Positions 5,460 to 56,474 of a DNA stretch of 64,000 nt are shown in pieces. The notes beneath the pieces were generated by a model. The model saw only the letters and a program-made list of their open reading frames with translations. It was not told the origin of the DNA and searched no databases. Made by a program: the position numbers and the translations under genes. The DNA is from Trypanosoma brucei (lineage: Eukaryota): positions 192,001-256,000 of the forward strand of contig CM000208.1 of assembly GCA_000002445.1 (NCBI GenBank). Reading direction: 5' to 3'. How positions within the stretch are numbered: position 1 is the first letter of the stretch; the number at the start of each line of letters is the position of its first letter.

Positions 5460-6314
5460 ATCATGTTTTTTTATTTTATTTTTTATTTTATTTTTATTTT
5501 GGGGGGGGGACTCTATGGAGTGGGAATGGATGGGTTTTCTTCACCATGTAGTTTAAACGCGATGCAACTTTGGCTTGCGTTACTCAAGGAGACGTCTCGT
5601 ATGTTTTACAGGCAATATATGCGTGACTGCCTCGTCTAGATTGTTTTTGGTGTTTCTTTATATATATATATATATATATTTTGGTGGAAGGTGGGGGAGG
5701 AAATCATTGTTGGGAAGAAGGGAGGTTAATGGAAGTTCCACCACGTCTCGTCATTTTTGGAAATTTTTTTTTCTTATCGATGCGAAATACCACCGCACTA
5801 TTTGCCTACGGTGATGGTGTAGTTGTATATTTTCCCCTACTTCCAGATATGCTTGTTTTATTTTACATTTGTGTAGGTAGATAATGATGAGGCTGCTGGA
5901 CGCAGCAGTGATGTGAAGCAGAGTAAGCGTAAGATAAGGTTAATACGAATTATAATGGTGTTTCGTTGATTTGTGGTTATCAGCAATAAGTTTCTGACGA
6001 GTACGAAATTTTGAGAGGTTCCATTGCACTTTTCCTTTTTTTCTTTTGTCTTTTGCATGCTAGTTTTATTTAACCGGTGTAGGTAACGCAACACATTGCA
6101 GTGACGAGATTCGTGCATTGTGCTGCCAGTGCACGCGGTGGTTTACATAAGCAAAATAATAACATTAGCGGAAGAAGAACCAAGAGCGTTTGGAGGCCAA
6201 CTGACTTTACCAAGTGTGGTGAAAAGGAATAGGCTCAAAGGATATCGTTGTAGTTAACGTAAAAGTGAACATAAGCTTACGTGTATAGTTCAAAGCGCCA
6301 CTTATCGTTGCGAC

Positions 6315-8213
6315 ATGCATCGCCAGCGCCGCCTTGTGCGTGGCCTTCTTTCAAATTCTTCTTCTCAAATGTTGGGATGCCGACCTTTTTTTGGAATGAG
6401 TGGAAGGGGCAGCGGTGGTGCCGGGGGTCGTGGGGATTCGGGAAAAGAAGGGGAAGTTGGAGGGAAAGGATGGTCAGGGCTGTTTAGCGGTGCAGGTGGA
6501 TTGCCACCGGGATTTGACGAACAGAGGTTGAAGGCAGTTCAAGAAATATTTAATAAACAGTCCCCTGAGAAGCAAGCGGAGCTGATGAAAAAGGCACTCG
6601 AGTTCCAAAAGGTTTTTGGGAAGGTCCCGGGGATTGGTAAAATGGCGCAGAAAAATATTGAAATGTTGGAGAAGGTGGTGATTAACAACTCCAGCCAGCA
6701 GCAACAACAAACACCTCCAAAGGCGAATGGAATCCGCAGCATGTCTGGGGCTGCTGAAAGGGAAAATAAGGCAAAAATAAAGTCGTCTAATGAATCGACA
6801 GCAGCCGGCTCCGCGAGAATCTCGGGGGGTGCTGCCGGACCCACCATTGACGAACTGAAGAAAATTAACTTGGGACCCGAGATTGAGGAGCTTTTCGCCG
6901 AGCTCTCCTCGATAAGGGCAAAGAAAAATTCTTATCGTAGTAAATTCCTCGCTGCTGAAACAGATCTTGAGAAGTTGAGGAAAGAGGTTGAACAGTTGCG
7001 TGAGACAGACGCTAGTCTCCGGTCAAAGCTGCGTCGAGTGGAACAAGATGTTATGCTTCTCAATTCTGAAAACATGGAATTGAAAGAACATGAAAAAGAA
7101 TGGAGACAGGTAAGGCACAAAAATGAGAAACTGACAGACGCAGTGCAGCGACTTCAACATGATAATGCGGCGCAAGACCGTCAGCTCAGCGAGGCCCTGC
7201 AAGTGCAGCTAAAGGAGAAGGATGATATGTTACGGTCGCTGCAACGAAAACTTGACAGACTCAGGAAGCGGGATCCACTTCTTCAATTTTCACTTCTCTG
7301 TAGTGACGTGGCACGGCTGTGTGATACTGAACAAAATGCCGCTAAGGATGCAGCTGAGGATGCCTTTAACATGCTGCAGGGAATTCACCAACAGAAGCAA
7401 GACGCTGCTTGGAAGTCAGCTATGTTACAGGATGGTGCAGCAGCGAAAGCATTCATGGCAGTGGTCCGCCGTTTTTACTTGAGTCGTGTTCCACATGCAA
7501 ACTATGATGCGCTTGTTGCGGTGGATGATGCGGAAGCGCTCCGACCTCTTGTGAGTGAAATGGGTTTCACTTTAGAGCATGTGGCTGCCGGTCGTTATGT
7601 CATCGTCGCTCCCTCTGTTGAGGTGCCCAAAACTTTTATTGGTCCGTACGGGCTGTGTGCTGCTTTATATCTTGCAGGGAAATCTGTAGAAGGAGAGAAA
7701 ATGTTTTCCTTTAAACTTACTGTTGTGTATCCACACGTAAGCTCAACTCTGTTTGGAAACACGTGCAGGACGGGGGTGCAGTATGACACGGCGAGGTCTA
7801 GCGGACCTGGTGGACAGGCCGTTAACGTTTCGGAGACCCAAATTATCGCAAAGTTGTCTATTGATGGCGATGCGGCTTATACCGCAGAGGCACAAGATTC
7901 TCGCAGTGCACTCAACAATCGGGAGGCTGCCACCGAGAAGTTGGCTAAAACAAGGCGTCAGCATTACAACGAACAACTCGCGAAGCAGCACAAGCCGGAA
8001 GGGTTAGAACGCGAATTAGTTGCTGTCGTACAGTCCACTCTTAATGGAAACGGTAGTAGTGGAAGTGATGGGATGGTGGGCCCCGTCCCCAAAGAGATTG
8101 TTGAGTTGGTAAATGACACTGTTGCCAAGAAATTGCTGCCTGGCGCAGAACTGGGGTTGCTGTACGGTATGTTGTATTTGTTTCGTGAGGCGGCGGCCGC
8201 TGCCTCCTCATAG
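6315..8213 (+). CDS. Coiled-coil protein with a C-terminal peptidyl-tRNA hydrolase / class-I release-factor (RF-1, ICT1-like) GGQ domain
   Basis: 632 aa. The N-terminus is Gly-rich, followed by a long heptad coiled coil (about 6900-7300). The C-terminus carries YDTARSSGPGGQAVNVSETQI, a GGQ motif in the typical RF-1 domain context, followed by a basic tail (REAATEKLAKTRRQ). Confidence 0.6.
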   Translation: MHRQRRLVRGLLSNSSSQMLGCRPFFGMSGRGSGGAGGRGDSGKEGEVGGKGWSGLFSGAGGLPPGFDEQRLKAVQEIFNKQSPEKQAELMKKALEFQKVFGKVPGIGKMAQKNIEMLEKVVINNSSQQQQQTPPKANGIRSMSGAAERENKAKIKSSNESTAAGSARISGGAAGPTIDELKKINLGPEIEELFAELSSIRAKKNSYRSKFLAAETDLEKLRKEVEQLRETDASLRSKLRRVEQDVMLLNSENMELKEHEKEWRQVRHKNEKLTDAVQRLQHDNAAQDRQLSEALQVQLKEKDDMLRSLQRKLDRLRKRDPLLQFSLLCSDVARLCDTEQNAAKDAAEDAFNMLQGIHQQKQDAAWKSAMLQDGAAAKAFMAVVRRFYLSRVPHANYDALVAVDDAEALRPLVSEMGFTLEHVAAGRYVIVAPSVEVPKTFIGPYGLCAALYLAGKSVEGEKMFSFKLTVVYPHVSSTLFGNTCRTGVQYDTARSSGPGGQAVNVSETQIIAKLSIDGDAAYTAEAQDSRSALNNREAATEKLAKTRRQHYNEQLAKQHKPEGLERELVAVVQSTLNGNGSSGSDGMVGPVPKEIVELVNDTVAKKLLPGAELGLLYGMLYLFREAAAAASS

Positions 8214-9314: not shown

Positions 9315-9416
9315 CAGAAGAAACAAACAGATATTACAAGCATTCAGTGCGTGCGTATATGCATATACATATATTTACTTGATATTTACTTATTCATATC
9401 AATGCTGGTATGTGTT

Positions 9417-9454
<38 letters not shown>

Positions 9455-10544
9455 CATTACTGTCTTTTTGTTTTTGTCTTTCCACAGTCCGCATCTAGAA
9501 TTACAGACATGCCTGTGCCCACAAGTGCTATTATTTGCGTCCGCGAAACAAAGGGGAGGGGAACTCTTTTTTTTTTTTTTCCCGCCGTTCGGTGACGTTT
9601 TCAATGGTAAATTTTCGTGGGAACATATATTTGCGTATTGATGCACGTGTTTGTTTGTGCAAACAAAATATATTTATTTTTACATATTTCTATTCGTATG
9701 TCTGTTTGAGTGAAGGGGTTCTTGGCTACATTAATTTAACCTTCTGCTATTTATTATTAATTTTATTATTGTAATTTCAATGTTGAACCTGAAACGATAA
9801 TAAATTAATATGCAGGGGTGGAAGACAAAGTAATGGTAAGGAAAAAAAAAAACAAAAACGGAGGAAAGACATGAAAGAAGGAAACTCCCGGGAACGGTTA
9901 TATTAGGGTTTTTTTTTCCAACACAGTGGAGTGACTCCCTCTTCCTGAATATGTTGCGACTGTTGTAAATAATTTTTTTCTTTCTTTTTTTGTTGTTTTT
10001 TCTACTGTTTTGTTACGTGTTTTACCACTTCGACTTGTTTTGTGTCTGTTTGTCCACGTTATGTTGAGGTTTTTCCATGCCTCGTCTCCCACATGTTTTG
10101 TGCTCTACATCAATCTTAAAAAAAAAAAAAAGAAAGTTTATTTATCTTTGTTCACTACTATTTGAGGGTTGTTGCTTTCTTTCTTTTCTTTTTTTTCTCC
10201 CCCTTTCGCGCGCCCTTTTTTCCCCTCGTGAGCACATCTTTTGACTCTCTTGCGGGCACACTTGAAGGAATAACTGCATGAAAACGCTGACATTAATGTT
10301 AAAATAATTTCAATATTAATGTTGATCACAATGCTAACATTGTGGTGTTATTGTCAAGGGTATTTTTGTATCAAATTTCCCATTAGTTTATTGACAATGT
10401 CCAGAAATTTCTTTTATTTGTCATTTTCCCGCTTTCCTTCCTTCTTTCTTTTCTTTTTTTTTTTACACCCCCTCCCCCTGATGTTTGCTTGTGAGGTTTA
10501 TCCGTTAGCTGTGCTATAAACGATCGGAAGAGGTGGAGGTTACG

Positions 10545-15990: not shown

Positions 15991-17802
15991 ATGGGGGCGG
16001 AAAAAAAAATAAATCGTCCCACCAACTCTGGTGAGGTTGCAGAGAATGTTGGCGCATTTACAGAGGTGATGGTACCGGTATGGAGTCGACTTTGTGACAA
16101 AGTTATCGCAGCCTACAAGGCAGGTGAAGATATTGTAGTATTACAGCATTTTGAGGAACTGCGGGCAACACCCGAGCTTGATGTTATTGCGCATGATTCG
16201 CTCATATCTGCTGCTCCCGACCTCACAGTTGGGGCGGTTGAGAAGAAAGAAGATGATAGAGCTGCTAAGAAAGAAAGGTTGGAATATTGTTGGGGGCGCG
16301 CACTTCTCTCTGCTAGGCACTTGGCAGGAGACGATGATGAACACATTAACAGCATCGTGGAAAGTTTTGAGCAACAGTTTGGATGCGTCTCCGGGTACCT
16401 TCGCGCTCTAGCTATAAACGCTGAGAGCGCACTGGAGGTGCTTCAGTTATACCAAATGATGGAGGGTCCGGTAACCACGAGGGTTGCCACTGCTGCTCTG
16501 CACCGGTTTTTAACAAATGACGCCAGTGAAGTTTCTGGACTGTTGCAGTTCCTGAAGTTGAATAATGTTCCACTGACACGTGAGTTTCATGATCAACTGG
16601 AAAAAAATTTTGTCATGCGTATGAAAACGGAGGATGCTGAGGAAGTCTTTAAGGACATGCGTAACGCTGGCGTGGAGCCAGTTAGTACACATCCGTATAA
16701 CTTTATTTTCATGAAAACACCCCCGTTTAAGTACATGGATCTTCTTGATTACTACGAGGACATGCTGGATCGCGGTATCGTGCCTATGAACTCCACCTTC
16801 CGCATTCTCAGCAGACAGACACAAAACGGGGGTTTGGTGAACCAACATTTTAGTGCTCTTGCGAGGGGGACGACTACGGGATCCGATCGTCGGCATGAAA
16901 CTGAAGGGCACGGCGGGACGCAGGCTTTTTTTGCCACACGCCTTGAGGAACTCGCTCGTTTGAAATCCAGTACAACTTTAGATGATGCTCTGCGCGTGCT
17001 CCGGCGTATGGACGTTGAGGGTACGCCATTAATTAGTGGCTCCGTTGTACTCAACGTCTTATTGTCCGTATTCTGCCGTGCAGGGCACATCGAAGACACG
17101 GAGCGTGTGCTTCAATTAGCAAAGGAGCGCGGATGTACTCCCAATGGTGCAACGTTGTCTAGGGTTTTAAAGAAGAGTAATGCAGACCGCTTTCTTCAAG
17201 CTGAGCTTATCCTACCAGACGCACTAGAAGCAGGTGACGTACGGTTAAGCGACATCACTGATGTTATGTGTCACTTCTTCAATAATGGCATGCGTAGTCA
17301 AGTAGTGCGTATACTCCGTGCATATGTTGTCCGTTGTTATCGCAACCCCACCGAGTCGATTCCCCACACCGTTGCCTTATGGGCGTTGCGACTGGGTCCG
17401 TTTGATTGGGCACTGGGTTTTTTAGCAATATTGCTTGCATCCAATGATGAGCCACTTAGCGATCGAATTCAACGGCGCATGCACGAAGTTGTGAAGGAGA
17501 ATCGAAGTCGTGAGATTCTTAAGGTTCTGGAGGGACACAAATGGGACCGCCGCAGTATTTTGCTCGCACCGCAGCTTCAAGAGCCAACAAACAGCAGCGA
17601 TGGCGCTGGTGAAGTTAATGGGCGCAGCAGTGAAGGAGGTAACAGCGGGGGTGGACATCATCGTCGCGACATGGGCCCGTCATGGATGAGTGCCATGCAT
17701 TTGGTACTAAAGGAAATGGGTGTGGAGAAGGAAGTACTGATGGGATATAAGGCGAAACTTTCGGCTCTCATTAATGATGCGAAAAAGAAGCGTGATAATT
17801 AA
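15991..17802 (+). CDS. Pentatricopeptide-repeat (PPR) protein, probable mitochondrial RNA-binding factor
   Basis: 603 aa. It contains several degenerate 35-aa helical repeats with the PPR consensus, for example AEEVFKDMRNAGVEPVSTHPYNFIFM, YYEDMLDRGIVPMNSTF, DDALRVLRRMDVEGTPLISGSVVLNVLLSVFCRAGHIEDTERVLQLAKERGCTPNGATLSRVL. Confidence 0.6.
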   Translation: MGAEKKINRPTNSGEVAENVGAFTEVMVPVWSRLCDKVIAAYKAGEDIVVLQHFEELRATPELDVIAHDSLISAAPDLTVGAVEKKEDDRAAKKERLEYCWGRALLSARHLAGDDDEHINSIVESFEQQFGCVSGYLRALAINAESALEVLQLYQMMEGPVTTRVATAALHRFLTNDASEVSGLLQFLKLNNVPLTREFHDQLEKNFVMRMKTEDAEEVFKDMRNAGVEPVSTHPYNFIFMKTPPFKYMDLLDYYEDMLDRGIVPMNSTFRILSRQTQNGGLVNQHFSALARGTTTGSDRRHETEGHGGTQAFFATRLEELARLKSSTTLDDALRVLRRMDVEGTPLISGSVVLNVLLSVFCRAGHIEDTERVLQLAKERGCTPNGATLSRVLKKSNADRFLQAELILPDALEAGDVRLSDITDVMCHFFNNGMRSQVVRILRAYVVRCYRNPTESIPHTVALWALRLGPFDWALGFLAILLASNDEPLSDRIQRRMHEVVKENRSREILKVLEGHKWDRRSILLAPQLQEPTNSSDGAGEVNGRSSEGGNSGGGHHRRDMGPSWMSAMHLVLKEMGVEKEVLMGYKAKLSALINDAKKKRDN

Positions 17803-25407: not shown

Positions 25408-28400
25408 ATGATTGGCACTCGGCGAAGTACTAAAAGCACCTCCTTTCAGCACCTGTACGGGTCACAAAACCGCACGCTGCGAGGTGCAAATGGTCAAAAG
25501 GGATTTTCCCATCAGCGGAATGGCACGGCTCGTGAGGAGCAGCAGTCAACCAAACCTCCAGGGCCACGTAACTCCGTTTTGATCAATCGTGTGGTTGATG
25601 TGTTGCCGCTGTTTAGCATCAACGGCACCGTTAGGTATATTGAGGCCGTAGGGGGACGTAGTGCGTGGACTGCAGAGGCGGATGGGTGCATTCGCGTGAG
25701 GAGTGTACCAAAGGGAACGGAAGTGCGAACACTGGAAGGAAGGGAAGGATGTTTCTGCACGTGCATATTATATGTAGAGTCAACGAATGCCATGTGGACA
25801 ACCTTCAGCGATGGCTTCATTCGCGTTTTCGACTTCAATACCCATGCGCTGCTCTCTGAGTTCATTAAACATGACAAAGCTATTGAATGTATATGGGAGG
25901 TGGAGGGATATGTATTTACGGGTGGTCGTGACTGGCAAATATATCAATGGAAGCCGGACACTTACGTCTGCGAACGACGACTCTCCGGTCACAATAATAC
26001 TGTTCGGTGCCTCTGCCAGTACGCTGGGGATACCGGAGCTGTCCTCTTCTCTGGAAGCGATGATGGCACTGTACGGGCGTGGGATCCATACCTTCCCGCG
26101 CGGAAAGGTAAGGACGGGGGCCCTATGATGCATATTTTTACTGGACACACACAGGGCGTGCTTTCTCTAGAACTTGTAACAGTCAGCAATCAGTTATGGT
26201 CTGGGGGCGAGGACACCACCATACGTGTTTACGACCTTCAAACGCTTGGGTGTGTTAGTGTGCTAAAGCACCACAGAGCACCCGTGAGTTCCATCAAGTT
26301 GATAGGAATTCGTGTGTGGAGTGCTGACAAGTATGGAAAGACGCTCTTGTGGGACCCCAAGACGTTAACACCACTGAAAGACCTCACCACTCATATGGCT
26401 ACCGACCCCGGTTCGATGCTCAGCATTTGTAAGGTGAAGCAACTGGTGTCATGGAAAGTATGGACTGCCTGTTCTGGGGGGAAGATTTATTGTTGGAATG
26501 CAGATTCTATTCCTATAGCGTTTGATGGTCCCACAGCCGGCAAGGACGCTGTTGATGTTAGCGATGCGGTGCAGCTGCTTACAGAAAATAAAGGCTTGCG
26601 AGGCGAAATAGAAAAGTTGAGGAGGCAGCTGATGGGTGAGGCCGAGGATGGGGGGTCTTCGGCAAACAGAGGGTCTGCGAGTGTGTCACCATCAAGAGCC
26701 AAAAGTGTTCCTTCTCATCCGCGGCACCATGAGTCCAAAATGGGACGAGGAACCTCCCCGTCGGCAACTCCACCGGGGAAAAGGCGGTCTCCCCCTGCGT
26801 TTTCTGCTGAATACGCCAACGATACTCCTATTCACGAGAGAGCAAACACGGCCTCCAGGGAGGGTGATGATGCACGAGGTTGCACGACATGTCATGAGAG
26901 ATTTTTCTATGGTGATGCATGGGAATTTATCTTCAGGCAAGACACGGAAGAGCTGTGCGCAGTGATCCGTCATGAAGTTGCTACTGTCCTCGGCATTCCG
27001 GCCGATCAGGTGCAAATCACCCAAATGGAACTTGGCAGTGCTGGCCAGGGGTGTGTTGTGAAGCTGAATATACAGCACAGTGCGAGTTTGCCTCCTTCAG
27101 AAATTGATACTATGCTAAGCAATTATCCATTTATTGATGTCTATGAGTTGTATGGTCGTTACCTCGCGAAGAAGTACGGGGACCCTAACGAAGTGCATGT
27201 TTCAGAGAGTGGAAGTGGGACGTTGGGTGGGCAGGTGCACCGGTCCCTGTGCGTTGACGACAGCAGAGGGGAGGAGGAGATGGCAAATGGTTACGACGAC
27301 CCTACGCCACTCCAAAATATGATCAACACGTTATTGAAGGAGAACGAAGAACTGCGGGGCCAGTTAATGCCAAAGGCGGAGACACCACCAGACGAAAACA
27401 ATGCTGAGGTTCGGACAGCGTTAACTAACTACGAAGAAGAGAGGATGAAGCCCCGGATTGCACAACTTGAGAAGGCTCTTGCCGAGAGAGATGAAACGCT
27501 TCACAGAAAGGATGAACGGATAAGGCAATTGGAGAGGGAACTTGAGGCAACCAAGTCCGATACCGGTATGAAGGAAGTCATGAAAGACCTGCGCAAAAGA
27601 GAGAAGAAACTGTTGACTGAAGTTGAAGCACTCACATCTCAGGTGGAGGCAATGGAAGAAGATAAGAGGAGAGCGGAAGACGATGCCAGCTTCTACCGAA
27701 GGGAAAATGAGTTGTTACGCAATCGTATCTCTGCAATGAATGAACAAATGGCAAAGGCATCAGGTTCTGAAGCAGAGGAAATGCAAAAGGTATTGACGAG
27801 TTATGAGGAAGAAAATGTAAAACCGAGGATAGCGCGACTTGAGGAGGTCATCGCAGAGAAGGATGAAAACCTTCAGTCACGGGACGAGAAGATAAAGAAG
27901 CTCGAAGATGAACTTGAGGCGGCAAAACAGGAAGCGAAATTTGCATCGGGGGAAAGTGTGAAGAGTAACGGCAAAGCAGGGAGTGAAACGGAAACATCGC
28001 TCTTAACGGAGGTGCAGGTGCTTAGAGACCAGGTGGAGGCAATGGAAGAAGATAAGAGGAGAGTGGAAGACGATGCCAGCTTCTACCGAAGGGAAAATGA
28101 GTTGTTACGCAATCGTATCTCTGCAATGAATGAACAAATGGCAAAGGCATCAGGTTCTGAAGCAGAGGAAATGCAAAAGGTATTGACGAGTTATGAGGAA
28201 GAAAATGTAAAACCGAGGATAGCGCGACTTGAGGAAGCGGTTTCTCAGAGGGACGAGGTTCTTCGTTCACAAGATGAACGGATAAAGGAGCTGACGAGAG
28301 AAATTGAAGAAAATCGGAGAGAAGACAAGAAGGGTTCCTACCACGTTACAGACGAGGCTGTTGTAGCGTCCAAGGAGGAAGTTCAGGCACTGAAGAATCA

Positions 28401-30567
28401 AATGAAAGCAATGAAAAAGGAAAAAGAAAAACTGGAAAATGAGTCTAAGCTCTATAGGAAGGAGAATGAGTCGCTGAAGGAACGGCTTTCTGAGACGAAT
28501 GATCAGCTGAAGAAGTCATCACCTCTTCACGAAGAGGAGAAACAAAAGGTGCTGTCAAGATACGAGGAAGAAAATATGAAAGCGAGAGTCGCGCGACTTG
28601 AGGAAGCCGTTACTCAGAGGGATGAGGCTCTTCGTGCAAAGAGCGAGCGGATACGCCAACTGGAGAAGGAACTGAGGGCAGCGCACCGAGAAGTGAAGGC
28701 TGCTCTCGAGGAGAGCAAGAAAAGCAGCAGTCGGCTTCACAGCGACTCCACGCAGACATCGGCAGAGGAACTGAGGTCTCTCATGACAAAAGCAAGGGAA
28801 AGAGAAAAAGAAAAATTAAAGAATGAGTCTAAGCTCTATAGGAAGGAGAATGAGTCGCTGAAGGAACGGCTTTCTGAGACGGATGATCAGCTGAAGAAGT
28901 CGTCGTCTCTCGACGAAGAGGAGAAACAAAAGGTGCTGTCAAGATACGAGGAAGAAGACGTGAAGCCGAGAGTGGCACGACTTGAGGAAGCCGTTACTCA
29001 GAGGGATGAGGCTCTTCGTGCAAAGGATGAGCGGATACGCCAACTGGAGAAGGAACTGAGGGCAGCGCACCGAGAAGCGAAGTCTGCTCTCGAGGATGGC
29101 AGGAGAAACAGCAGTCGGCTTCACAGCGACTCCACGCAGACATCGGCAGAGGAACTGAGGTCATTGAAAACAAAGATGGATGAAATGGAGAATGACAAAC
29201 GAAGGCTGAATGAAGAAATCGTCCTGTTAAGAAAGGAAAACGAGACACTAAAGCGAAATTTGGGTGACGTAATGAGGAGGTTAAAGAATCCATCAAGTTT
29301 CATTGCAAGCGAGAAACAGAAATTGCTGTCGAGCTACGAGGAAGAACACGTGAAACCGAGAATTACACGACTTGAGCATGCGGTTACTCTGAGGGACGAG
29401 AGACTTCAAGCAAAGGAGGATCGGATACGTCAACTGGAGAGGGAACTCGATGCCCTGCGGTATGGTGGTAAAAATGATGTGGATAACAATGCAGTGGAAG
29501 ATGGTAAGACCTTCCGCCAGCTGGAAGAGGCACTCTTAGTTGAAATTCAAGGAGTAAAGGATCAAATGAGGGCAATGGCAAAGAGCAATCAAAAAATGCA
29601 AGAAGAAGCTGTTTGTCTAATGAGGGAGAATCAGATGCTGAGAGATCGTCTTGCGGAGGCGTGTGAACAGCTCGGAAAGACACCATCTATCGAGGCGAGG
29701 GAGACTAGTCGAGAACTAGTGAAGTGTGAGGATGTAAGTCCTAACCCTAGAATAGCACAGCTTGAGCAAGCCGTAACTGAGAGGGATGAAATACTCCACA
29801 CAAAGGATGAACGGATAAGGCAACTGGAGAGGGAACTCGAGATGTTTCAGCACGAAAACAGGGCGATATGTGGCAACAGAGATTGTCGGGACGCAGGAAG
29901 GAAGTTGGCGGCTGAAAACCAAGAACTGAGGAATCTGGTGAAGTATATTGAGAATGACAAGCAGAAGCTGGAGCACGAGGCCAGTTTTTTCAAGCATGAA
30001 AACGATGCTCTGATCGGCCGTATCGCGGAGCTGGAAAGTACTCCAAGAGCGCCGTCCTTGTCACCAACTAAGACTCATACCCTTTCGGGTGATAGGGAGG
30101 CTCTTATGTCGCGGCTGGGCACTGCAATCGAGCAGGTTCACAATGTTCAGAAAGAAAGAGAGGCTGCAGAACGCAAGATTGCTGTATTGCAGGAGGATTG
30201 TAGGGACCTCCGTATGAGGCTTCAGCACGCTTCTGATACTCCTGTACGTAATGAAGCGTTGTTTCCGTCTTCCACTAACTGTGACGGCACATACCAAACA
30301 GGTCTTCACAGTGGAGAGGATGCTCATTTAATTGAAAGTGCGAGGGGAGCGCCTCACAGTAGTAGTGACGCCATTGTTGAGTTATTGCCCGACAGATTAA
30401 CCGCATTGGAGGATACGATGGCGTCTTTAAATACAGGACTTCATGACGCTATACGTCGTTTGAGCTCCGTAAGCGACAACAGCGCGCTGCTACGCACACA
30501 AATTGCGGATATGCTCTCGCAGCGTTCGTCTCACAATCTGATTACTGATCCTCATGAGAGGTCGTAG
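25408..30567 (+). CDS. WD40-repeat N-terminal domain plus giant repetitive coiled-coil protein (1719 aa)
   Basis: N-terminal WD repeats (GHNNTVRCLCQY...FSGSDDGTVRAWD, FTGHTQGVLSLE...WSGGEDTTIRVYD). A charged heptad coiled coil follows, built from a recurring module about 130 aa long (YEEENVKPRIARLEEAV.QRDE.L..KDERI.QLE.EL) present roughly 9 times, including near-identical recent copies. Confidence 0.75.
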   Translation: MIGTRRSTKSTSFQHLYGSQNRTLRGANGQKGFSHQRNGTAREEQQSTKPPGPRNSVLINRVVDVLPLFSINGTVRYIEAVGGRSAWTAEADGCIRVRSVPKGTEVRTLEGREGCFCTCILYVESTNAMWTTFSDGFIRVFDFNTHALLSEFIKHDKAIECIWEVEGYVFTGGRDWQIYQWKPDTYVCERRLSGHNNTVRCLCQYAGDTGAVLFSGSDDGTVRAWDPYLPARKGKDGGPMMHIFTGHTQGVLSLELVTVSNQLWSGGEDTTIRVYDLQTLGCVSVLKHHRAPVSSIKLIGIRVWSADKYGKTLLWDPKTLTPLKDLTTHMATDPGSMLSICKVKQLVSWKVWTACSGGKIYCWNADSIPIAFDGPTAGKDAVDVSDAVQLLTENKGLRGEIEKLRRQLMGEAEDGGSSANRGSASVSPSRAKSVPSHPRHHESKMGRGTSPSATPPGKRRSPPAFSAEYANDTPIHERANTASREGDDARGCTTCHERFFYGDAWEFIFRQDTEELCAVIRHEVATVLGIPADQVQITQMELGSAGQGCVVKLNIQHSASLPPSEIDTMLSNYPFIDVYELYGRYLAKKYGDPNEVHVSESGSGTLGGQVHRSLCVDDSRGEEEMANGYDDPTPLQNMINTLLKENEELRGQLMPKAETPPDENNAEVRTALTNYEEERMKPRIAQLEKALAERDETLHRKDERIRQLERELEATKSDTGMKEVMKDLRKREKKLLTEVEALTSQVEAMEEDKRRAEDDASFYRRENELLRNRISAMNEQMAKASGSEAEEMQKVLTSYEEENVKPRIARLEEVIAEKDENLQSRDEKIKKLEDELEAAKQEAKFASGESVKSNGKAGSETETSLLTEVQVLRDQVEAMEEDKRRVEDDASFYRRENELLRNRISAMNEQMAKASGSEAEEMQKVLTSYEEENVKPRIARLEEAVSQRDEVLRSQDERIKELTREIEENRREDKKGSYHVTDEAVVASKEEVQALKNQMKAMKKEKEKLENESKLYRKENESLKERLSETNDQLKKSSPLHEEEKQKVLSRYEEENMKARVARLEEAVTQRDEALRAKSERIRQLEKELRAAHREVKAALEESKKSSSRLHSDSTQTSAEELRSLMTKAREREKEKLKNESKLYRKENESLKERLSETDDQLKKSSSLDEEEKQKVLSRYEEEDVKPRVARLEEAVTQRDEALRAKDERIRQLEKELRAAHREAKSALEDGRRNSSRLHSDSTQTSAEELRSLKTKMDEMENDKRRLNEEIVLLRKENETLKRNLGDVMRRLKNPSSFIASEKQKLLSSYEEEHVKPRITRLEHAVTLRDERLQAKEDRIRQLERELDALRYGGKNDVDNNAVEDGKTFRQLEEALLVEIQGVKDQMRAMAKSNQKMQEEAVCLMRENQMLRDRLAEACEQLGKTPSIEARETSRELVKCEDVSPNPRIAQLEQAVTERDEILHTKDERIRQLERELEMFQHENRAICGNRDCRDAGRKLAAENQELRNLVKYIENDKQKLEHEASFFKHENDALIGRIAELESTPRAPSLSPTKTHTLSGDREALMSRLGTAIEQVHNVQKEREAAERKIAVLQEDCRDLRMRLQHASDTPVRNEALFPSSTNCDGTYQTGLHSGEDAHLIESARGAPHSSSDAIVELLPDRLTALEDTMASLNTGLHDAIRRLSSVSDNSALLRTQIADMLSQRSSHNLITDPHERS
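27641..28240 (+). repeat. Two near-identical ~210-nt copies (27641-27850 and 28031-28240) within the WD40 coiled-coil gene
   Basis: Both copies encode QVEAMEEDKRR(A/V)EDDASFYRRENELLRNRISAMNEQMAKASGSEAEEMQKVLTSYEEENVKPRIARLEE. Confidence 0.85.
28420..29170 (+). repeat. Two ~370-nt near-identical tandem copies (28420-28790 and 28805-29170) within the same gene
   Basis: Both copies encode NESKLYRKENESLKERLSET(N/D)DQLKKSS...RLHSDSTQTSAEELRSL. Confidence 0.85.
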
Positions 30568-32263: not shown

Positions 32264-35200
32264 ATGGCCATGCGGCGGTCATCACCTTCGCCACGACCCC
32301 GCGTGAGGTCGGCGTCTGTGGCTTCCATTCCGGATACGCAACGATGTGAAGGAATTCTTTCATCCCGTTCCATTGCAGGTACGGCGCGCTCCATAGAATA
32401 TGTGGGCGACCGATGTGTATGGGCTGCAGCAGTTGATGGTCGCGTCTTAGTTTATTCGCTCTCCGATGGTGAAGTAGTTGCAGAGGCGGCCGTACGTGAA
32501 AATACCTTTTGTACAGTACTACGCCTCGTGTCAAGAAGACGCATTTGGGCTGGGTTCGCGGACGGTTTTATTTGTTGCTACGACAGTTCGACGGCGAATT
32601 TGTTGAATGAGTTTGTTCAGCATGATGGCGCAGTGAACTGCCTGGCCACAACCCCTTATAGTGAGTTTGTTTATAGTGGCGGGGAAGATTGGAAAGTGTA
32701 CCAATGGTTGAAGGAAAGTTGCACGTACGTACGGCTCTTCTCTGGTCATTCTAATGCTGTGCGATGTGTTGTTGCGCATATAGTGGAGAGTGCGTCAACC
32801 CGTTCTGTATCGGAAGGGGTGCGCTCCCTTGGTGATGACATGTACAATAACGAGGAGGACGAAGGGGGAGAGGGGTGTAATGCTCGGGTTAATGAATCAA
32901 TGGAGGAGTACATCATTTCGGGAAGCGACGACATGACCATTAAAATATGGGACCCCCGGGCACCCTTGCAGATTGAACTAAACCTAGCTTGTCTCACTAC
33001 GCTTCGTGGTCACAATGGTGGTGTCCACTCCATGGAGGTTTTCCGTCGGAAGCAGGAGCTTTGGTCCGGTGACGGTGAAGGTGCTCTGCGTGTGTGGGAC
33101 CTCCATGATGTTAGGAAGCCTTCTTGCGTTGCCGTACTGGAGGGCCAACATAGCGCATCCATCTCATCCATAGTGCGTATTGATTCCTGCATGTGGAGCA
33201 GTGGCAAGGACAGCTTCGTTGTTTTATGGGACGCGTACGAAAAGGTAGCCTTACGTCGTTTTGTTCCCGGCGGACGTGCGGCTTCTAGGCCTATCTTCGT
33301 GATGCGACGGCTTTACCGGGCAGCTCATTGGGTTATATGGCTTGGAGGGCTCGATAGGAACATTCATTCTCTCAGTTTTGCAGCGGACGGTGATATAGAT
33401 GGAAAGTTGCTTCGTTCAGAGAAGCGGTGTGCGGCTAACAAACTGCGTTACATGCGCCTACAGGAAAGAACTATGGAACTATGCACTCTCGTAGAGGAAT
33501 TGGAAGAGAAAAACAAGGCATTGGAGACTCAGGTGCAGCAGCTCAACGCACTATTACATAGATCGTTGGAGGCAAGTCAGCCCTTAGACCACGGAAGTGG
33601 CAGAAGCAGATCAGCAGGTAAGGGAGGAGTTACATTTCGCCGCCTAAAAAGTGACGCAGAAGGTGACAAGGCACCATCAAGGCTTGCCGTGGACACAACG
33701 TTGAAGCTACCGAGTGGGATTGCCTCACGGTGCTCGACAGCAGATCCGTCACCGGAAAAATCCTTTAAGAAAGATGTACGGGCGTGGGAAAAGCAGGAAA
33801 AACAGACCATAACGGGTGATATTTCGGACGGGCAAAAACTTATCGATCAGATGGAACTCATCACGTCGGCTGAGTTTACATTGCAGGACGTCAGTGGTGT
33901 TGATGGCACAAGTCGCCTTGCCTTCGAGGCGTACAAGAAAGAGGTAGAACTGAAGTTGGCTGAGGAAGAATTGTCGCGACAAGCGCTGCAGCGTGAGCTG
34001 GCGGAGGCGACAAAGTACAAGACGATGTGGGAAACGAAAAACGACGCGTTACGGGACGCCTACGAACAAATTGAAAACCTACAGCGAAATCTCGAAGGCG
34101 AGCAACGGTACGTCAACGATCTACTGCAAGAGATGGCTCAGTTATCCAACAAGAAAGTGCGTGGGGAGGGTGAGGAAGATTTACCGTGTGCAGATAATCG
34201 CACTCCTACAGAACCTAGAGACCCTAGCACTGGTTACTCACTATACAAGAGCATCCCAGGCAACTACTGGGACAACATCTGCACGAACTATCCGGACGTT
34301 CTTAGGGATACCCTTTTTTCCGAACTCAGTGAATTAGTTAGTAGTTTGGGGGCAGTCGTAACAAATATCGCTTATGCTTCAACGGGAGAATGTCTTTTGG
34401 TCGAGGCGGTTGTAGGACCTACCACAGTTGGGCGAGAGAAAATGCAGAGCTGTCTGGAGCTACATGCATTTCCTCAGACACGTACCCTTCACGAGAGTAT
34501 GTCCACCCCATTTCGTAAGGACGCTTCGGTAAAAAAATCGGAGAAGGATAATGGATGGAAGCTGTTGGTGGAAGCGAAGGAGAGGGCAGAAATGGAGCGT
34601 GATGAGGCCTTGGCAGTGCTTCAGGAGGCTACTGATGAGTTGGAAGCCATGTATGAATATCAGCGTCAAGTTGAGGAGCGCCGTGCGAAAACCCCTGGTT
34701 TATGCGACATCACCGCGTTACGAGACCAGAAAAATAGCAGTGTAACTTCCTCAACTTCTCAGGCGTGTACTAAAGTTCCCATATATGTGGCCACAGCAGA
34801 AGAATATGAAGAGGTTCTTGCAGTTATGGGTAAGTTAGAGAGGGAGCGAGATGAGGTACTTCAGCTGCTTCAAAAGAGTCAGGCCAACTCAGTTTCGACA
34901 ACGAATAAGGCTACATCAACCAGCTTCATTGATTCACAACACCGGCAGCACAGGGAAGACACTGCCGCCTCCCAAACCGTGAGTGTCAACGAATACTCCA
35001 GGGTCGTCGCCGAGAAGGAGGGAGCGGAGGCTGAATGTCGGGAAGCTCGGAGGAAACTTCAGAAGGCCCTTCACGAGTTGGAATCTCTTCAAAAGCTTCA
35101 TCTTCAAGCTGAGGAACAGCGTTCTAGAACGCGAGGGTTGGCGGGGTCCACTAGGTTACACGGTCGAAAGAGTACCAACGAATCTTTATTGGAATCACGA

Positions 35201-37047: not shown

Positions 37048-37802
37048 CGTATCTTATCTTTTTTTGTTTTCAAACTGTTACAACAGCCTTCTATTCATGG
37101 CATCGCGATATCATTGTTGTTACTACTATTGCATCAAATGTCGGTAGCGTCGGTTTGGATAACTCTGTGTTACCAACTCACTCGAGTCCCTCGCAGTGCA
37201 CCTCTTGTTTTTGTGGAGGACACCAGTGGGGGGGGGGGTGAAATTGAGAGACGAAAAATGCACTCTCCATTTGCTGCCCTCTCCGCCTCCAACTGCCGCC
37301 GATGTTTCTGCGTGGTGCGTGGAAAAGAGAGGGGATTAGCGAGAAGGTGGGGAGGGGAACGGGGAAATAACGAACGGTCAACGATCACTTGTAAAAAGGA
37401 AAAGAAAACGATTGCTTCCGGGCGTGTGTCCGTGTGTGGGAGAGAGAAGGGGAAGGCGAAGCAAAGGAAGTTATTTTCCCCTGTTAGATAACGATCTGGG
37501 AGAAGTGTCTGCATACTCCTTTCTTCCACTATTCCCACTCACTCCGTTCGTTTTGTGTGCGTACTTTTTGGTGGTGATTAGCTAGCGCGTAAATCAAAAG
37601 CTTGAACTTGCGTGTAACACTACTTTTTACACCTCACCCTACTCAGTACAGTTATAATCGTTTATTTATTGTCTTCTTTTTTTAAAAAAAATATTATTAT
37701 TTTAACTTTCCTTTGAACACCCACATTTTATGTCGTTCTGTAGTGGTATTCGCGGTTGTCCAGCAGCGAACGGAAAGAGGAGAGGCAAAGAAAAGGGTGC
37801 TT

Positions 37803-41858: not shown

Positions 41859-42989
41859 CCTAATTGGGTATACCCGAGAGCAAACGTGTAGGCTCGTCAA
41901 ACATTAGCGACGGTTCTGTCACCGAGCTAACCGTCGATACACCACCTGTACACCACGTATATGCTTGCGTGTCCTATTACAACAAATAACTTAAATGCCA
42001 AAAAAAAAAAAAGTATTTAAGGTGCCACACACTCTGCGATTGTACCTTCTCCAGCAGTGTGCCGAGCCTACCTTTAGCACTGTACCTTCTTGATTTGTTG
42101 TTACTTTTGACTACTGTGTTGATGAATAAGCTGAGGCACGCTCAAAGTGTAAAATAATAGTTTCATCTGAAGGGTCACCTTTTTACTGTACATTCTTTCT
42201 TTCCTTTTTTTTAAAAAAAGAAGGGGTTCACAACGTTCAGCGCACACCTGTTCATAACGCCCACGAATGAATAACTTCCCCGAATGGGAATAGTAAAAGA
42301 GAGAAGAAGATATGGCATGACACTACGGAAAACAGCACCACGTTTTTTTTTTGCTTTTCGCTTTGTATTGCTTTCGTGTGTAACTTATGGGTCATTTGTC
42401 TACACCTTTGTTTACCTCTCAACTGTATAAATATAACATAAATATGCGATTGCCTGTATTTATTTGTTCATGTACACTTCACGGAAGAGTTCTTTGTGCT
42501 TTGTAGCTAACTGAGAAGCTCATCCTTTCTCTTGTACCTTAAACTTACTCCCTATAAATGTTGGTCAATTTCTGCCGTTTTGTACTGTGATGGCTGCTTG
42601 CACGTGGATTTTTTTTTTGTGTTTCCACTTTGTGTACGTGACCGGCGTTACGAAAGCATTGTGTATCCTTGCTGTTGGGCGGTATTTTGCCTCTCACTTT
42701 GTACCAATGAAGGGCTATCCACTTGCCTGTAAAAGTTTTTTCTTGTTCTTATTACGGTGAGTCAACATGTCTGTACCTTGACAACTCTGTCCCCTTCGCT
42801 GCGATCTAGCTCCTTTTTTTTTAATTTTGTGACATTATTAAGTGCAATACATTTAGACTGTGATACGACAAACATAAACGCATCACTGTAGTCACAAGTA
42901 ACCGTTACGGCGCACGTCTTTGAGTAATTGATCCGCACGACAGAAGGCGGCACATACCGACAGGAATCACCAACATCTCAACATTGCAA

Positions 42990-56116: not shown

Positions 56117-56474
56117 CTATCCTTTTTTCTTCCTATTTCAAGTTGGATGTGCGTTCGGCACAGCGCGAGTAACATCCGTCAAATTTAGTCGGAGCAACCT
56201 CTCTCACCTTGTCTTTGTTGTGGTGGCGGTTGTGTTTGTGTGCCGCTTTTGCGAGCATTTCCACTTATTCCTTAACTCGTGAAAATGTTGTGTCTGGCAT
56301 CAAGCTGCTCCTCCTCGTGCCACTTCCCCCCTGTAGAGGTAATACACATTTCACCCCGCACAGCCACACAAACACAAAATATACATTAGCAGAAAAGGGG
56401 GACTCCAAGTGTTTTGTATATTTGCCTATATACACACATTGAACAAATACGCTGTTTTACATGAAAATTGGATT

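What the first reader, a model, noticed from the sequence alone, without database searches (positions are those of the whole stretch)
6315..8213. GGQ (RF-1/ICT1-type peptidyl-tRNA hydrolase) domain fused to a long coiled-coil N-terminal region
The C-terminal 90 aa carries SSGPGGQAVNVSETQ followed by a basic tail. This is the hallmark of class-I release-factor and ICT1/PTH4-type ribosome-rescue hydrolases. Known ICT1-like and C12orf65-like proteins are small, about 150-200 aa. Here the domain sits at the end of a 632-aa protein. Upstream there is a Gly-rich N-terminus, a heptad coiled coil of about 150 aa and a middle domain. This is an atypical architecture. The protein may be a lineage-specific mitochondrial ribosome rescue or quality-control factor.
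Basis: partly seen in the sequence, partly recalled or inferred. Interest (0 to 1): 0.5.

Follow-up and report, generated by a model that had tools for sequence, protein, structure and literature searches.

The report
Kinetoplastid mitochondrial release-factor-like protein, uncharacterised
This Trypanosoma brucei gene (Tb927.10.770) encodes a mitochondrial protein found only in kinetoplastids, in which an intact release-factor "GGQ" peptide-releasing domain sits behind a long coiled coil; it is probably a third, still unstudied factor that frees stalled mitochondrial ribosomes.

Summary
The ORF at 6315-8213 (+) is real. It is T. brucei TREU927 chromosome 10 gene Tb927.10.770 (Q38CG3), 632 aa, annotated "hypothetical protein, conserved". 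Pfam RF-1 matches aa 488-560 above its curated cut-off. The GGQ loop aligns with the catalytic loop of RF1/RF2 and is kept in every full-length orthologue.

- There is no alpha-i insertion.
- The last 72 aa are acidic (pI 4.5), not a basic tail.
- The ArfB model scores 15 bits against a cut-off of 100.
- By profile, the domain lies about equally far from RF1/2, PrfH and ArfB, and farther from animal mtRF-R.

Stop-codon reading motifs are absent. The family is small (37 clusters among 1.84 billion representatives) and spans Kinetoplastea, including Perkinsela and Papus.

Upstream lie a presequence, a family-specific helical module and a heptad coiled coil of about 131 residues. The coil length is nearly fixed and its two ends are the best conserved parts of the protein.

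Published proteomics places the protein in mitochondria. It is absent from all solved structures, and I found no paper on it.

Most likely it is a codon-independent peptidyl-tRNA hydrolase of kinetoplastid mitoribosomes. This is inferred, not shown. I rate it a new variant of a known kind, of moderate interest.

The parts
6315..8213 (+). Complete coding sequence of Tb927.10.770 (632 aa plus stop)
   Evidence: ORF list. 100% identity to XP_822335.1/Q38CG3. Gene id from the Peikert 2017 supplement. Met1 with the MxRR start is conserved in the orthologues.
6030..6062 (+). Polypyrimidine tract followed by AG: a candidate trans-splice acceptor about 250 nt upstream of the ATG
   Evidence: Read directly from the sequence. 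There is no ATG between 6062 and 6315. This is inference only; no RNA data were available.
6315..6395 (+). N-terminal mitochondrial presequence (aa 1-27, MHRQRRLVRGLL...RPFFG)
   Evidence: 5 K/R and no D/E. The MxRR...RxFF pattern is conserved. TargetP and MitoFates are positive in Peikert 2017 Suppl. Data 2a.
6396..6512 (+). Gly-rich low-complexity linker (aa 28-66)
   Evidence: 44% Gly, mean conservation 0.30, pLDDT below 50.
6513..6695 (+). Family-specific helical module rich in Met/Gln/Lys (aa 67-127; three helices)
   Evidence: AF2 helices 69-81, 84-101 and 108-127. Conserved in the family. No relatives outside the family in PDB or in the 5.8-billion-protein search.
6696..6830 (+). Disordered, variable linker (aa 128-172)
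   Evidence: pLDDT 31-43, conservation 0.24.
6831..6944 (+). Coil-start motif GPT(I/L)DELKK(I/V)NLGPEIExLFxEL (aa 173-210), among the best conserved segments
   Evidence: Invariant P176, L181, L186, G187, E189, I190, E191, L193, F194, E196, L197, R201, N205, R208. Conservation 0.78, peaking at 0.9.
6876..7268 (+). Long heptad coiled-coil helix (aa 188-318)
   Evidence: AF2 predicts a single helix, pLDDT 73-90. Heptad signal: 0 of 500 shuffles reach the observed value. The a/d register is continuous over 186-263, with a hinge at 281-294. Length is 131 or 134 aa in all 17 orthologues, and the motif spacing is 122 or 125 aa.
7215..7304 (+). Coil-end basic motif SLQRKLDRxRRRDPLLQFS (aa 301-330)
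   Evidence: Invariant R311, K312, R315, R317, D320. Conservation 0.78-0.85.
7305..7490 (+). Helical region packing on the catalytic half (aa 331-392)
   Evidence: AF2 model of the C-terminal half: pLDDT 88, pTM 0.82; helix at model residues 2-47.
7491..7700 (+). Small alpha/beta middle domain (aa 393-462) with invariant YDA, GF and GPYG; possibly a remnant of RF domain 2 without a codon-reading loop
   Evidence: Secondary-structure order beta-alpha-beta-beta-alpha. In hhalign it falls collinear with RF domain 2 only when domain 3 is included. On its own it is not significant: Prob 0.1, E 0.47. No PDB sequence hit.
7701..7994 (+). RF-1 / GGQ peptidyl-tRNA hydrolase domain (aa 463-560); GGQ codons at 7809-7817
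   Evidence: Pfam PF00472, 37.5 bits, E 2.6e-9. Family profile against PDB: mtRF1a 6e-9, PrfH 4e-8, RF1/RF2 about 1e-7 to 1e-6. hhalign against RF1/RF2: Prob 98.9, E 2.8e-17. P498, G499, G500, Q501, A502, N504, E507, T508 are invariant.
7995..8210 (+). Acidic C-terminal helices (aa 561-632); not a basic ArfB/ICT1-like tail
   Evidence: pI 4.5, 5 K/R against 9 D/E. AF2 helices 561-581, 593-604 and 612-631. Low conservation, 0.37.

Best explanation
Tb927.10.770 is a nuclear gene for a mitochondrially imported, kinetoplastid-specific and very divergent member of the bacterial-type class-I release-factor (RF-1/GGQ) superfamily.

Shown:
- The GGQ domain is intact and resembles domain 3 of canonical release factors.
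- No conserved stop-codon-reading element (PxT or SPF) is present.
- There is no basic tail of the ArfB/ICT1 kind that probes the mRNA channel.
- The protein is expressed, and published proteomics finds it in mitochondria.

Inferred:
- The GGQ loop enters the peptidyl-transferase centre of the kinetoplastid mitochondrial large subunit and hydrolyses peptidyl-tRNA without reading a codon. This would release nascent chains from ribosomes, or split large subunits, that canonical TbMrf1 cannot terminate. Examples are ribosomes stalled on non-stop, truncated or incompletely edited mRNAs.
- Target choice would come from the other parts: the compact body formed by the helices, the middle alpha/beta domain and the C-terminal helices; and the coiled coil of about 131 residues. 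The near-fixed length of the coil and its highly conserved ends suggest a dimerisation element, spacer or tether to a ribosomal or membrane partner.
For: Identity and expression:
- 100% match to Q38CG3.
- 33 peptides and 43.7% coverage in organelle-enriched fractions. Abundance falls to 0.80 on ATOM40 knock-down (p 0.007) and is unchanged on SAM50 knock-down. Listed in the mitochondrial proteome; TargetP and MitoFates positive.

Catalytic domain:
- Pfam RF-1 is above its cut-off.
- Profile hits to mtRF1a, PrfH, RF1 and RF2.
- hhalign Prob 98.9, with TaRSSGPGGQAaNVtETQ aligned on TxRSSGaGGQHVNKTeSA.
- GGQ is kept in every full-length family member, from Trypanosoma to Perkinsela and Papus.
- A large share of the invariant columns cluster at aa 485-552.

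No codon reading:
- No PCRF hit in Pfam.
- In the hhalign alignment the RF 'GVHR...SPF' segment falls on gaps.
- T. brucei 'PKT' at 438-440 is not conserved, even in T. congolense.

Not a stoichiometric ribosomal protein:
- Absent from every PDB chain.
- Not marked in the 2008 mitoribosome set.

Ancestry from a full-length RF:
- Foldseek top hits for both models are full-length RF1/RF2, with 201-375 aligned columns.

Established knowledge: every characterised GGQ protein of this fold acts at the peptidyl-transferase centre.
Against: - No functional experiment on this protein was found; nothing for Tb927.10.770 in 8 million full texts.
- Ribosome association is not shown, and the protein is not in the 2008 mitoribosome purification list.
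- No element that senses an empty A site or mRNA channel could be identified, so target recognition is unexplained.
- The role of the coiled coil is guesswork.
- The middle domain alone shows no significant similarity to RF domain 2.
- The drop on ATOM40 knock-down is mild (20%).
Confidence: 0.55

Rival explanations
1. It is the kinetoplastid version of C12orf65/mtRF-R. It would act on split mitochondrial large subunits that still carry peptidyl-tRNA (mitochondrial ribosome-associated quality control). The lineage-specific N-terminal half would replace or recruit a partner such as MTRES1.
For: - Like C12orf65, the GGQ domain lacks the alpha-i insertion.
- It carries 'GGQA.N', as does the insect mtRF-R sequence P0139, and a similar 'RSAL.NKE' stretch.
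- Burroughs & Aravind 2019 state that C12orf65 homologues are detectable in kinetoplastids, without naming the gene (PMC6514570).
- Absence from monosome structures is compatible with action on free large subunits.
Against: - Profile-profile score to an animal mtRF-R alignment is the lowest of five subfamilies: 65, against 100-118 for RF1/2, PrfH and ArfB.
- Human C12orf65 scores 19.7 bits against 39 for mtRF1a.
- The basic C-terminal helical extension that defines C12orf65 is absent.
- I could not check whether kinetoplastids also have a separate small C12orf65.
Confidence: 0.15
2. It is not a hydrolase in vivo. It would be a structural or checkpoint factor, for example one that occupies the peptidyl-transferase centre of immature large subunits during the elaborate kinetoplastid mitoribosome assembly, or a coiled-coil scaffold with a retained RF fold.
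For: - The two ends of the coiled coil are better conserved (0.78) than the GGQ domain (0.67).
- Kinetoplastid mitoribosome biogenesis uses many lineage-specific factors (own knowledge).
- RF-fold proteins with structural roles exist: MRPS35, and ICT1 as mL62 (PMC6514570).
Against: - Inactive RF-fold proteins such as MRPS35 have lost the catalytic Gln (PMC6514570). Here P-G-G-Q-A-x-N-x-x-E-T is invariant across the alignment, and GGQ is kept in every full-length member of the wider family.
- The protein is in none of the solved structures, among which I expect the trypanosomatid assembly intermediates to be (own knowledge).
Confidence: 0.15
3. It is an ICT1/Pth4/ArfB-type rescue factor. A GGQ domain plus a basic tail would probe the empty mRNA channel, possibly as an integral ribosomal protein.
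For: - A GGQ domain without codon-reading motifs.
- ArfB-like sequences are among the nearest non-family hits.
- The ArfB class-1 profile score is comparable to that of RF1/2.
Against: - NCBIfam ArfB scores 15.4 bits against a cut-off of 100, over 24 residues only.
- ICT1 chains score E 0.1-0.2.
- No alpha-i segment.
- The C-terminus is acidic and helical.
- TbPth4 is a different gene (PMC5865105).
- The protein is not in mitoribosome structures.
Confidence: 0.05
4. It is a codon-dependent termination factor with an unconventional recognition surface, as vertebrate mtRF1 is, dedicated to particular kinetoplastid mitochondrial mRNAs.
For: - Overall collinearity with full-length RF1/RF2 in Foldseek and hhalign.
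- An invariant GPYG loop lies in the middle domain, at the position of the RF 'G..AYG' motif.
Against: - No conserved tripeptide motif.
- The segment that carries PxT/SPF in RFs is deleted.
- The middle domain has no significant similarity to RF domain 2.
- TbMrf1 already serves UAA/UAG (PMC5865105).
Confidence: 0.07

Closest known systems
Canonical bacterial/mitochondrial class-I release factors (RF1, RF2, mtRF1a/TbMrf1), domain 3
   Same: - Same Pfam domain (PF00472).
- The GGQ loop and the flanking strands and helix align over 84-178 columns.
- No alpha-i insertion.
- Foldseek top hits for both models.
- The order of secondary-structure elements upstream resembles domain 2.
   Different: - Full-length RF models score 20-31 bits against cut-offs of 370-423.
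- No PCRF domain and no PxT/SPF motif.
- Domain 4 is replaced by acidic helices.
- The N-terminal part is replaced or expanded into a coiled coil of about 131 residues plus a novel helical module.
- Nearly twice the size.
C12orf65 / mtRF-R (with MTRES1), mitochondrial rescue of split large subunits
   Same: - Mitochondrial, codon-independent GGQ protein.
- No alpha-i insertion.
- 'GGQA.N' context.
- Not an integral ribosomal protein.
- The most similar known way of working, if the target is a split large subunit.
   Different: - mtRF-R has about 160 aa and a basic C-terminal helix.
- It gives the lowest profile similarity of the subfamilies tested.
- It has no coiled coil.
ArfB / ICT1 (mL62) / Pth4 (TbPth4 = Tb927.6.2500)
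   Same: GGQ domain without codon recognition; rescue function in mitochondria.
   Different: - The ArfB model is far below its cut-off.
- No alpha-i segment and no basic tail.
- It is a distinct gene from TbPth4.
- It is not part of the solved mitoribosomes.
Derived organellar RF paralogues that lost decoding motifs (plant mtRF2c/mtRF2b, vertebrate mtRF1; Duarte et al. 2012, PMC3472500)
   Same: The same evolutionary pattern: a lineage-specific duplicate of a release factor that keeps GGQ, loses stop-codon motifs and stays in the organelle.
   Different: - A different lineage with no detectable orthology.
- None of those paralogues carries a long coiled coil or the N-terminal module.
Vms1/ANKZF1 (cytosolic ribosome quality control)
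   Same: An analogy of design only: a release-factor-type catalytic domain embedded in a large multidomain protein with a coiled coil and targeting modules, acting on large subunits that carry peptidyl-tRNA.
   Different: - An unrelated catalytic fold (eRF1-like).
- Acts in the cytosol and at the mitochondrial surface.
- No sequence relationship.

Membership tests
RF-1 / bacterial-type release-factor peptidyl-hydrolase superfamily (Pfam PF00472) | Significant match to the RF-1 domain profile | tested here: met
   37.5 bits against a gathering score of 35, E 2.6e-9. All 17 orthologues match. hhalign Prob 98.9 against RF1/RF2.
RF-1 / bacterial-type release-factor peptidyl-hydrolase superfamily (Pfam PF00472) | Catalytic GGQ tripeptide in the loop between the first two core strands | tested here: met
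   GGQ at 499-501 aligns with the RF GGQ. It is invariant in the family. In the model it sits in the loop between strands 486-494 and 508-516.
Canonical RF1 / mtRF1a (prfA) | Full-length equivalog score | tested here: not met
   NF001859 27 bits against 400; TIGR00019 20.5 bits against 423.
Canonical RF1 / mtRF1a (prfA) | Conserved PxT codon-recognition tripeptide and PCRF domain | tested here: not met
   No PCRF hit. 'PKT' at 438-440 occurs in T. brucei only (PKP, PPA, SPT and others in relatives). The RF motif region aligns to gaps.
Canonical RF2 (prfB) | Full-length model score and SPF motif | tested here: not met
   TIGR00020 31.2 bits against 370, covering only aa 462-556. No SPF.
ArfB / ICT1 (mL62) / Pth4 | ArfB equivalog score | tested here: not met
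   NF006718 15.4 bits against 100, over aa 488-511 only. ICT1 PDB chains E 0.1-0.2.
ArfB / ICT1 (mL62) / Pth4 | Basic, unstructured or helical C-terminal tail that binds the empty mRNA channel | tested here: not met
   The last 72 aa have pI 4.5, with 5 K/R against 9 D/E, and are predicted as packed helices.
ArfB / ICT1 (mL62) / Pth4 | Alpha-i helical insertion between the last two strands (ICT1 / ArfB class 1; Burroughs & Aravind 2019) | tested here: not met
   Strands 508-516 and 519-527 are joined by two residues.
ArfB / ICT1 (mL62) / Pth4 | Integral component of the mitochondrial large subunit (mammalian ICT1) | tested here: not met
   No PDB chain carries this sequence; the best hit has E 0.0016 and is mammalian mtRF1a. 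Not marked in the 2008 mitoribosome set. Transient binding is not excluded.
C12orf65 / mtRF-R | GGQ domain without alpha-i | tested here: met
C12orf65 / mtRF-R | Positively charged C-terminal helical extension; small size (about 160 aa) | tested here: not met
   632 aa with an acidic C-terminus.
C12orf65 / mtRF-R | Closest profile similarity or orthology | tested here: inconclusive
   hhalign score 65 against 100-118 for the other subfamilies, but the mtRF-R alignment held animals only. Whether kinetoplastids have a separate small C12orf65 gene could not be checked.
PrfH (RF-H) | Equivalog score; association with RtcB | tested here: not met
   TIGR03072 29.1 bits against 166.65. Gene neighbourhood has no meaning in a trypanosome polycistron.
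Mitochondrial matrix protein of T. brucei | Presequence and experimental detection in mitochondria | tested here: met
   A basic N-terminus free of acidic residues. TargetP and MitoFates positive, in the mitochondrial proteome, and dependent on ATOM40 (PMC5436138 supplement). The sub-mitochondrial compartment was not determined.
Ribosome-dependent peptidyl-tRNA hydrolase (activity) | GGQ-dependent release of peptide from peptidyl-tRNA on ribosomes | not testable with these tools
   Needs biochemistry or genetics.

The most novel reading that the evidence does not exclude
The protein is a new class of mitochondrial quality-control release factor, held at a fixed distance from its target. A dimeric or partner-bound coiled coil of conserved length would act as a ruler. 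It would be anchored through its invariant end motifs and the N-terminal module to a kinetoplastid-specific ribosomal protein or the inner-membrane insertion machinery. From there it would deliver a GGQ domain derived from a canonical RF to the peptidyl-transferase centre of stalled or split mitoribosomes. This would be a functional counterpart of Vms1 or mtRF-R, evolved to cope with translation of non-stop or incompletely edited mRNAs.
Probability: 0.15. Interest if true: 0.75.

Novelty: new variant of a known kind. Interest (0 to 1): 0.45.

Why it matters
Kinetoplastid mitochondria translate mRNAs that must first be heavily edited, on ribosomes with drastically reduced rRNA. How these ribosomes are rescued when translation fails is almost unknown.
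- So far only TbMrf1 and TbPth4 have been studied, and bloodstream cells survive without TbMrf1 (PMC5865105).
- A third GGQ protein is conserved from Perkinsela to Leishmania, is abundant enough to give 33 peptides, and has an architecture seen nowhere else. It is therefore a concrete, testable candidate for the missing release or rescue activity.
- It would also be a further example of release-factor duplicates being rebuilt for quality control.
- Because it is absent from the host, it would be parasite-specific.

Tried and rejected
1. **Middle domain as a remnant of RF domain 2.** It is collinear in hhalign only when the GGQ domain is included. Alone it gives Prob 0.1, E 0.47 and has no PDB sequence hit. 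I kept it only as a weak structural hint.
2. **Coiled coil as an antiparallel hairpin with a conserved tip at about aa 250.** The conservation peak sits midway between the two end motifs. However, the heptad register runs unbroken from 186 to 263 and AF2 predicts one helix. Dropped.
3. **N-terminal Met/Gln-rich module as an STI1/ubiquilin-like client-binding domain.** Only two orthologues gave E 0.35 to a ubiquilin family, and profile searches found nothing. Unsupported.
4. **'PKT' at 438-440 as an RF1-type tripeptide.** Not conserved, so it is chance.
5. **Special affinity to C12orf65.** Not found.
6. **Literature.**
   - There were no hits for the gene id, the old id, or the UniProt and NCBI accessions. 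The three hits were word-start matches to longer gene ids of the form Tb927.10.770x, such as the ABC transporter Tb927.10.7700.
   - The gene does not occur in the held supplements of the TrypTag paper or the kDNA-screen paper.
   - The supplements of Duarte 2012, Burroughs 2019 and the kinetoplast preprint are not held.
   - The Cell Reports sub-mitochondrial map and the RIT-seq paper are not held either.
7. **Fold search against the AlphaFold database.** Not available.
9. **Gene neighbourhood.** It carries no functional information, because the window is a trypanosome polycistron.
Full report
**1.

The window is Trypanosoma brucei brucei TREU927 chromosome 10.
- The ORF at 6315..8213 (+), 632 aa, is 100% identical to XP_822335.1 / EAN77507.1 / UniProt Q38CG3, 'hypothetical protein, conserved', on a 4.05-Mb contig.
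- The supplement of Peikert et al. 2017 (PMC5436138) ties Q38CG3 to gene Tb927.10.770, formerly Tb10.70.7440.
- All long ORFs in the window are on the + strand and cumulative GC skew rises throughout, as expected for one polycistronic unit. Neighbouring genes therefore say nothing about function.

The motif SSGPGGQAVNVSETQ lies at aa 495-509.
- Pfam RF-1 (PF00472) matches aa 488-560 with 37.5 bits against a gathering score of 35, E 2.6e-9.
- All 17 aligned orthologues match it.

So the core observation is real and not chance. Three details need correcting:
- The motif is 138 aa from the C-terminus, not within the last 90.
- The 'basic tail' is the mildly basic last helix of the RF-1 domain (aa 532-560; 7 K/R, 3 D/E). 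The true C-terminal 72 aa are acidic (pI 4.5) and predicted helical.
- The coiled coil is about 131 residues.

**2. Anatomy**

AlphaFold2 models were built from an alignment of 17 orthologues for the full length (pLDDT 73). For aa 345-632, 13 of those orthologues were used (pLDDT 88, pTM 0.82). Together with per-segment conservation they give the following parts:

| aa | Feature | Notes |
|---|---|---|
| 1-27 | Basic presequence without acidic residues | MxRR...RxFF conserved |
| 28-66 | Gly-rich linker | variable, 44% Gly |
| 67-127 | Three-helix module rich in Met/Gln/Lys | conserved in the family; no relatives elsewhere |
| 128-172 | Disordered linker | |
| 173-210 | Motif GPT(I/L)DELKK(I/V)NLGPEIExLFxEL | near-invariant |
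| 188-318 | One long helix | see below |
| 301-330 | Basic motif SLQRKLDRxRRRDPLLQFS | near-invariant |
| 331-392 | Helices | |
| 393-462 | Small alpha/beta domain | invariant YDA, GF and GPYG |
| 463-560 | GGQ domain | |
| 561-632 | Acidic helices | |

Details of the long helix:
- The heptad signal is significant; 0 of 500 shuffles reach the observed value.
- The a/d register is unbroken from 186 to 263. A break follows at 281-294, where the Leishmania clade has Pro/Gly.
- The helix is 131 or 134 residues long in all 17 orthologues. The distance between the two end motifs is 122 or 125 residues in most family members where both motifs are found, and 118-126 in the few others.
- The two coil ends are the best conserved parts of the protein (0.78), ahead of the GGQ domain (0.67).

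**3. Which kind of GGQ domain**

Sequence and profile comparisons:
- A family profile searched against PDB finds mtRF1a (6e-9), PrfH (4e-8) and RF1/RF2 (about 1e-7 to 1e-6). ArfB (2e-3), C12orf65 (4e-3) and ICT1 (0.1-0.2) score far weaker.
- No NCBIfam equivalog comes near its cut-off: RF2 31 bits against 370, PrfH 29 against 167, RF1 27 against 400, and ArfB 15 against 100 over only 24 residues.
- hhalign against an RF1/RF2 alignment gives Prob 98.9, E 2.8e-17 over 178 columns, with the GGQ loops in register.
- With the GGQ domain alone, the scores are RF1/2 115 (84 columns), PrfH 118, ArfB class 1 113, classical ArfB-like 100 and animal mtRF-R 65.

Structural features:
- The last two strands (508-516 and 519-527) are joined by two residues. 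The alpha-i insertion that marks ICT1 and ArfB class 1 (Burroughs & Aravind 2019, PMC6514570) is therefore absent.

Conclusion: the domain is an orphan branch of the superfamily, shaped like domain 3 of canonical release factors. The ICT1/Pth4 label is not supported. T. brucei has its own Pth4 (Tb927.6.2500) and Mrf1 (Tb927.3.1070) (PMC5865105).

**4. Is the rest a degenerate release factor?**

Evidence in favour:
- Foldseek places full-length RF1/RF2 at the top for both models. The C-terminal half gives E 5e-4 to 1e-2 over 201-322 columns. The full length gives E 1.4e-4 to 5e-2 over 283-375 columns.
- TM-scores are only 0.1-0.25, however.
- hhalign extends collinearly into RF domain 2. There the RF 'GG.EA' and 'GVHR...SPF' segments fall on gaps, and 'GPYG' falls on the RF 'G..AYG' motif.

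Evidence against:
- The middle region alone is not significant (Prob 0.1, E 0.47).
- It has no PDB sequence hit.

Descent from a full-length release factor is therefore plausible but not established. What is firm is that no stop-codon-reading motif is conserved. There is no PCRF hit, and the T. brucei 'PKT' at 438-440 is already PKP in T. congolense.

**5. Distribution**

- Among 1.84 billion cluster representatives, only 37 score below E 1e-10. Scores then fall abruptly from at least 64 bits to at most 51 bits, where the hits are ordinary ArfB and RF1/RF2 proteins.
- Members include Trypanosoma, Leishmania, Leptomonas, Strigomonas and Porcisia. They also include the early-branching Perkinsela and Papus, both Prokinetoplastina by my own knowledge of their taxonomy.
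- None of the sequences that carried a source name came from outside Kinetoplastea.
- The GGQ motif, the coiled coil and the end motifs are kept throughout.

**6. Location and expression (from the literature)**

In Peikert 2017:
- Tb927.10.770 is in the mitochondrial reference set. It is marked for the mitochondrial proteome (Panigrahi 2009 / Mach 2013), TargetP and MitoFates. It is not marked for the 2008 mitoribosome purification.
- It was identified with 33 peptides (43.7% coverage) in organelle-enriched fractions.
- It fell to 0.80 on ATOM40 knock-down (p 0.007) and was unchanged on SAM50 knock-down.

No PDB chain carries this sequence. I expect the solved trypanosomatid mitoribosomes and assembly intermediates to be in that copy (own knowledge). 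No paper in the library mentions the gene. Burroughs & Aravind mention C12orf65 homologues in kinetoplastids without naming them.

**7. How it most likely works**

Shown:
- A mitochondrial, expressed protein.
- A GGQ hydrolase domain under strict conservation.
- No decoding motifs and no ArfB-type tail.

Inferred:
- It hydrolyses peptidyl-tRNA at the peptidyl-transferase centre of kinetoplastid mitoribosomes in a codon-independent way.
- It would serve ribosomes, or split large subunits, that TbMrf1 cannot terminate.
- The fixed-length coiled coil, with its invariant ends and the N-terminal module, would provide dimerisation, spacing or tethering to a partner.

I put this at 0.55. The rivals are:
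- a divergent mtRF-R-like factor for split large subunits (0.15);
- a non-catalytic assembly or checkpoint or scaffold role (0.15), which is argued against by the invariant catalytic loop;
- an unconventional codon-dependent factor (0.07);
- the ICT1/ArfB type (0.05).

**8. Novelty and score**

The RF-1 domain is already recorded in database annotation (UniRef, 'Prokaryotic-type class I peptide chain release factors domain-containing protein'). The bare observation is therefore not new.

I found the following described nowhere:
- the family as a distinct branch spanning Kinetoplastea;
- its architecture;
- the fixed coil length;
- the exclusion of the ICT1 type.

No functional study was found either.

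I rate it a new variant of a known kind, interest 0.45. It is a good, testable candidate for a missing mitochondrial release or rescue activity in trypanosomatids, but its mechanism is so far only inferred.

Noticed in passing
window 25408-30567, 32264-36772, 37713-41858 (+): Three consecutive large genes each carry the Pfam FAZ1_cons domain; the first two also have N-terminal WD40 propellers. This looks like a tandem family of flagellum-attachment-zone-type proteins.
   Followed up: no
window 45444-54113 (+): A 2889-aa kinesin. Its motor domain is clear, but the long tail gives high-scoring yet fragmentary Pfam matches (Ribosomal_L19e N-terminal, CheY-binding, PEPCK_N). These are probably artefacts of internal repeats or biased composition.
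   Followed up: no
window 15991-17802 (+): A 603-aa pentatricopeptide-repeat protein. In trypanosomes such proteins are usually mitochondrial RNA or ribosome factors (own knowledge). It lies 8 kb downstream of the GGQ gene, but position has no functional meaning in a polycistron.
   Followed up: no
window 56409-58865 and 59409-60302 (+): A PIF1-like helicase (818 aa), followed by a 297-aa protein of the Ribosomal_L1 family that scores just above the Pfam cut-off (34.6 bits against 32.2).
   Followed up: no
window 42984-44357 (+): A thymidine kinase whose Pfam TK domain matches in two stretches of one 457-aa protein, that is, a tandem-domain TK.
   Followed up: no
orthologues P0003 (T. grayi), P0004 (T. 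conorhini), P0023 (Strigomonas culicis): NCBI names these orthologues 'type 11 methyltransferase'. The only domain on record for them other than a generic coiled-coil (GAS) hit is PF00472, and no methyltransferase family appeared in the scan. This is probably a propagated annotation error.
   Followed up: partly
window 7017-7082 (aa 235-256 of the target): A third conservation peak (consensus LRSKLxKxEQxVMLLNSENMEL) sits in the middle of the coiled coil, almost exactly midway between the two conserved end motifs. The heptad register runs through it, so it is not a hairpin tip. Its meaning is unexplained.
   Followed up: partly
window about 9380-9470 (+): The intergenic region downstream of the RING-finger gene contains TA and TG dinucleotide microsatellites. 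They show up as YIYIYI / CVCVCV runs in the ORF translations.
   Followed up: no
proteins P0025 and P0054 (unnamed Logan assemblies) and P0051 (ENA): Some family members reach 840-900 aa. They have long low-complexity insertions inside the middle domain and extended C-termini, while keeping the coil spacing and GGQ. P0051 also has a second, degenerate 'GTGGQ' upstream of the real motif.
   Followed up: no
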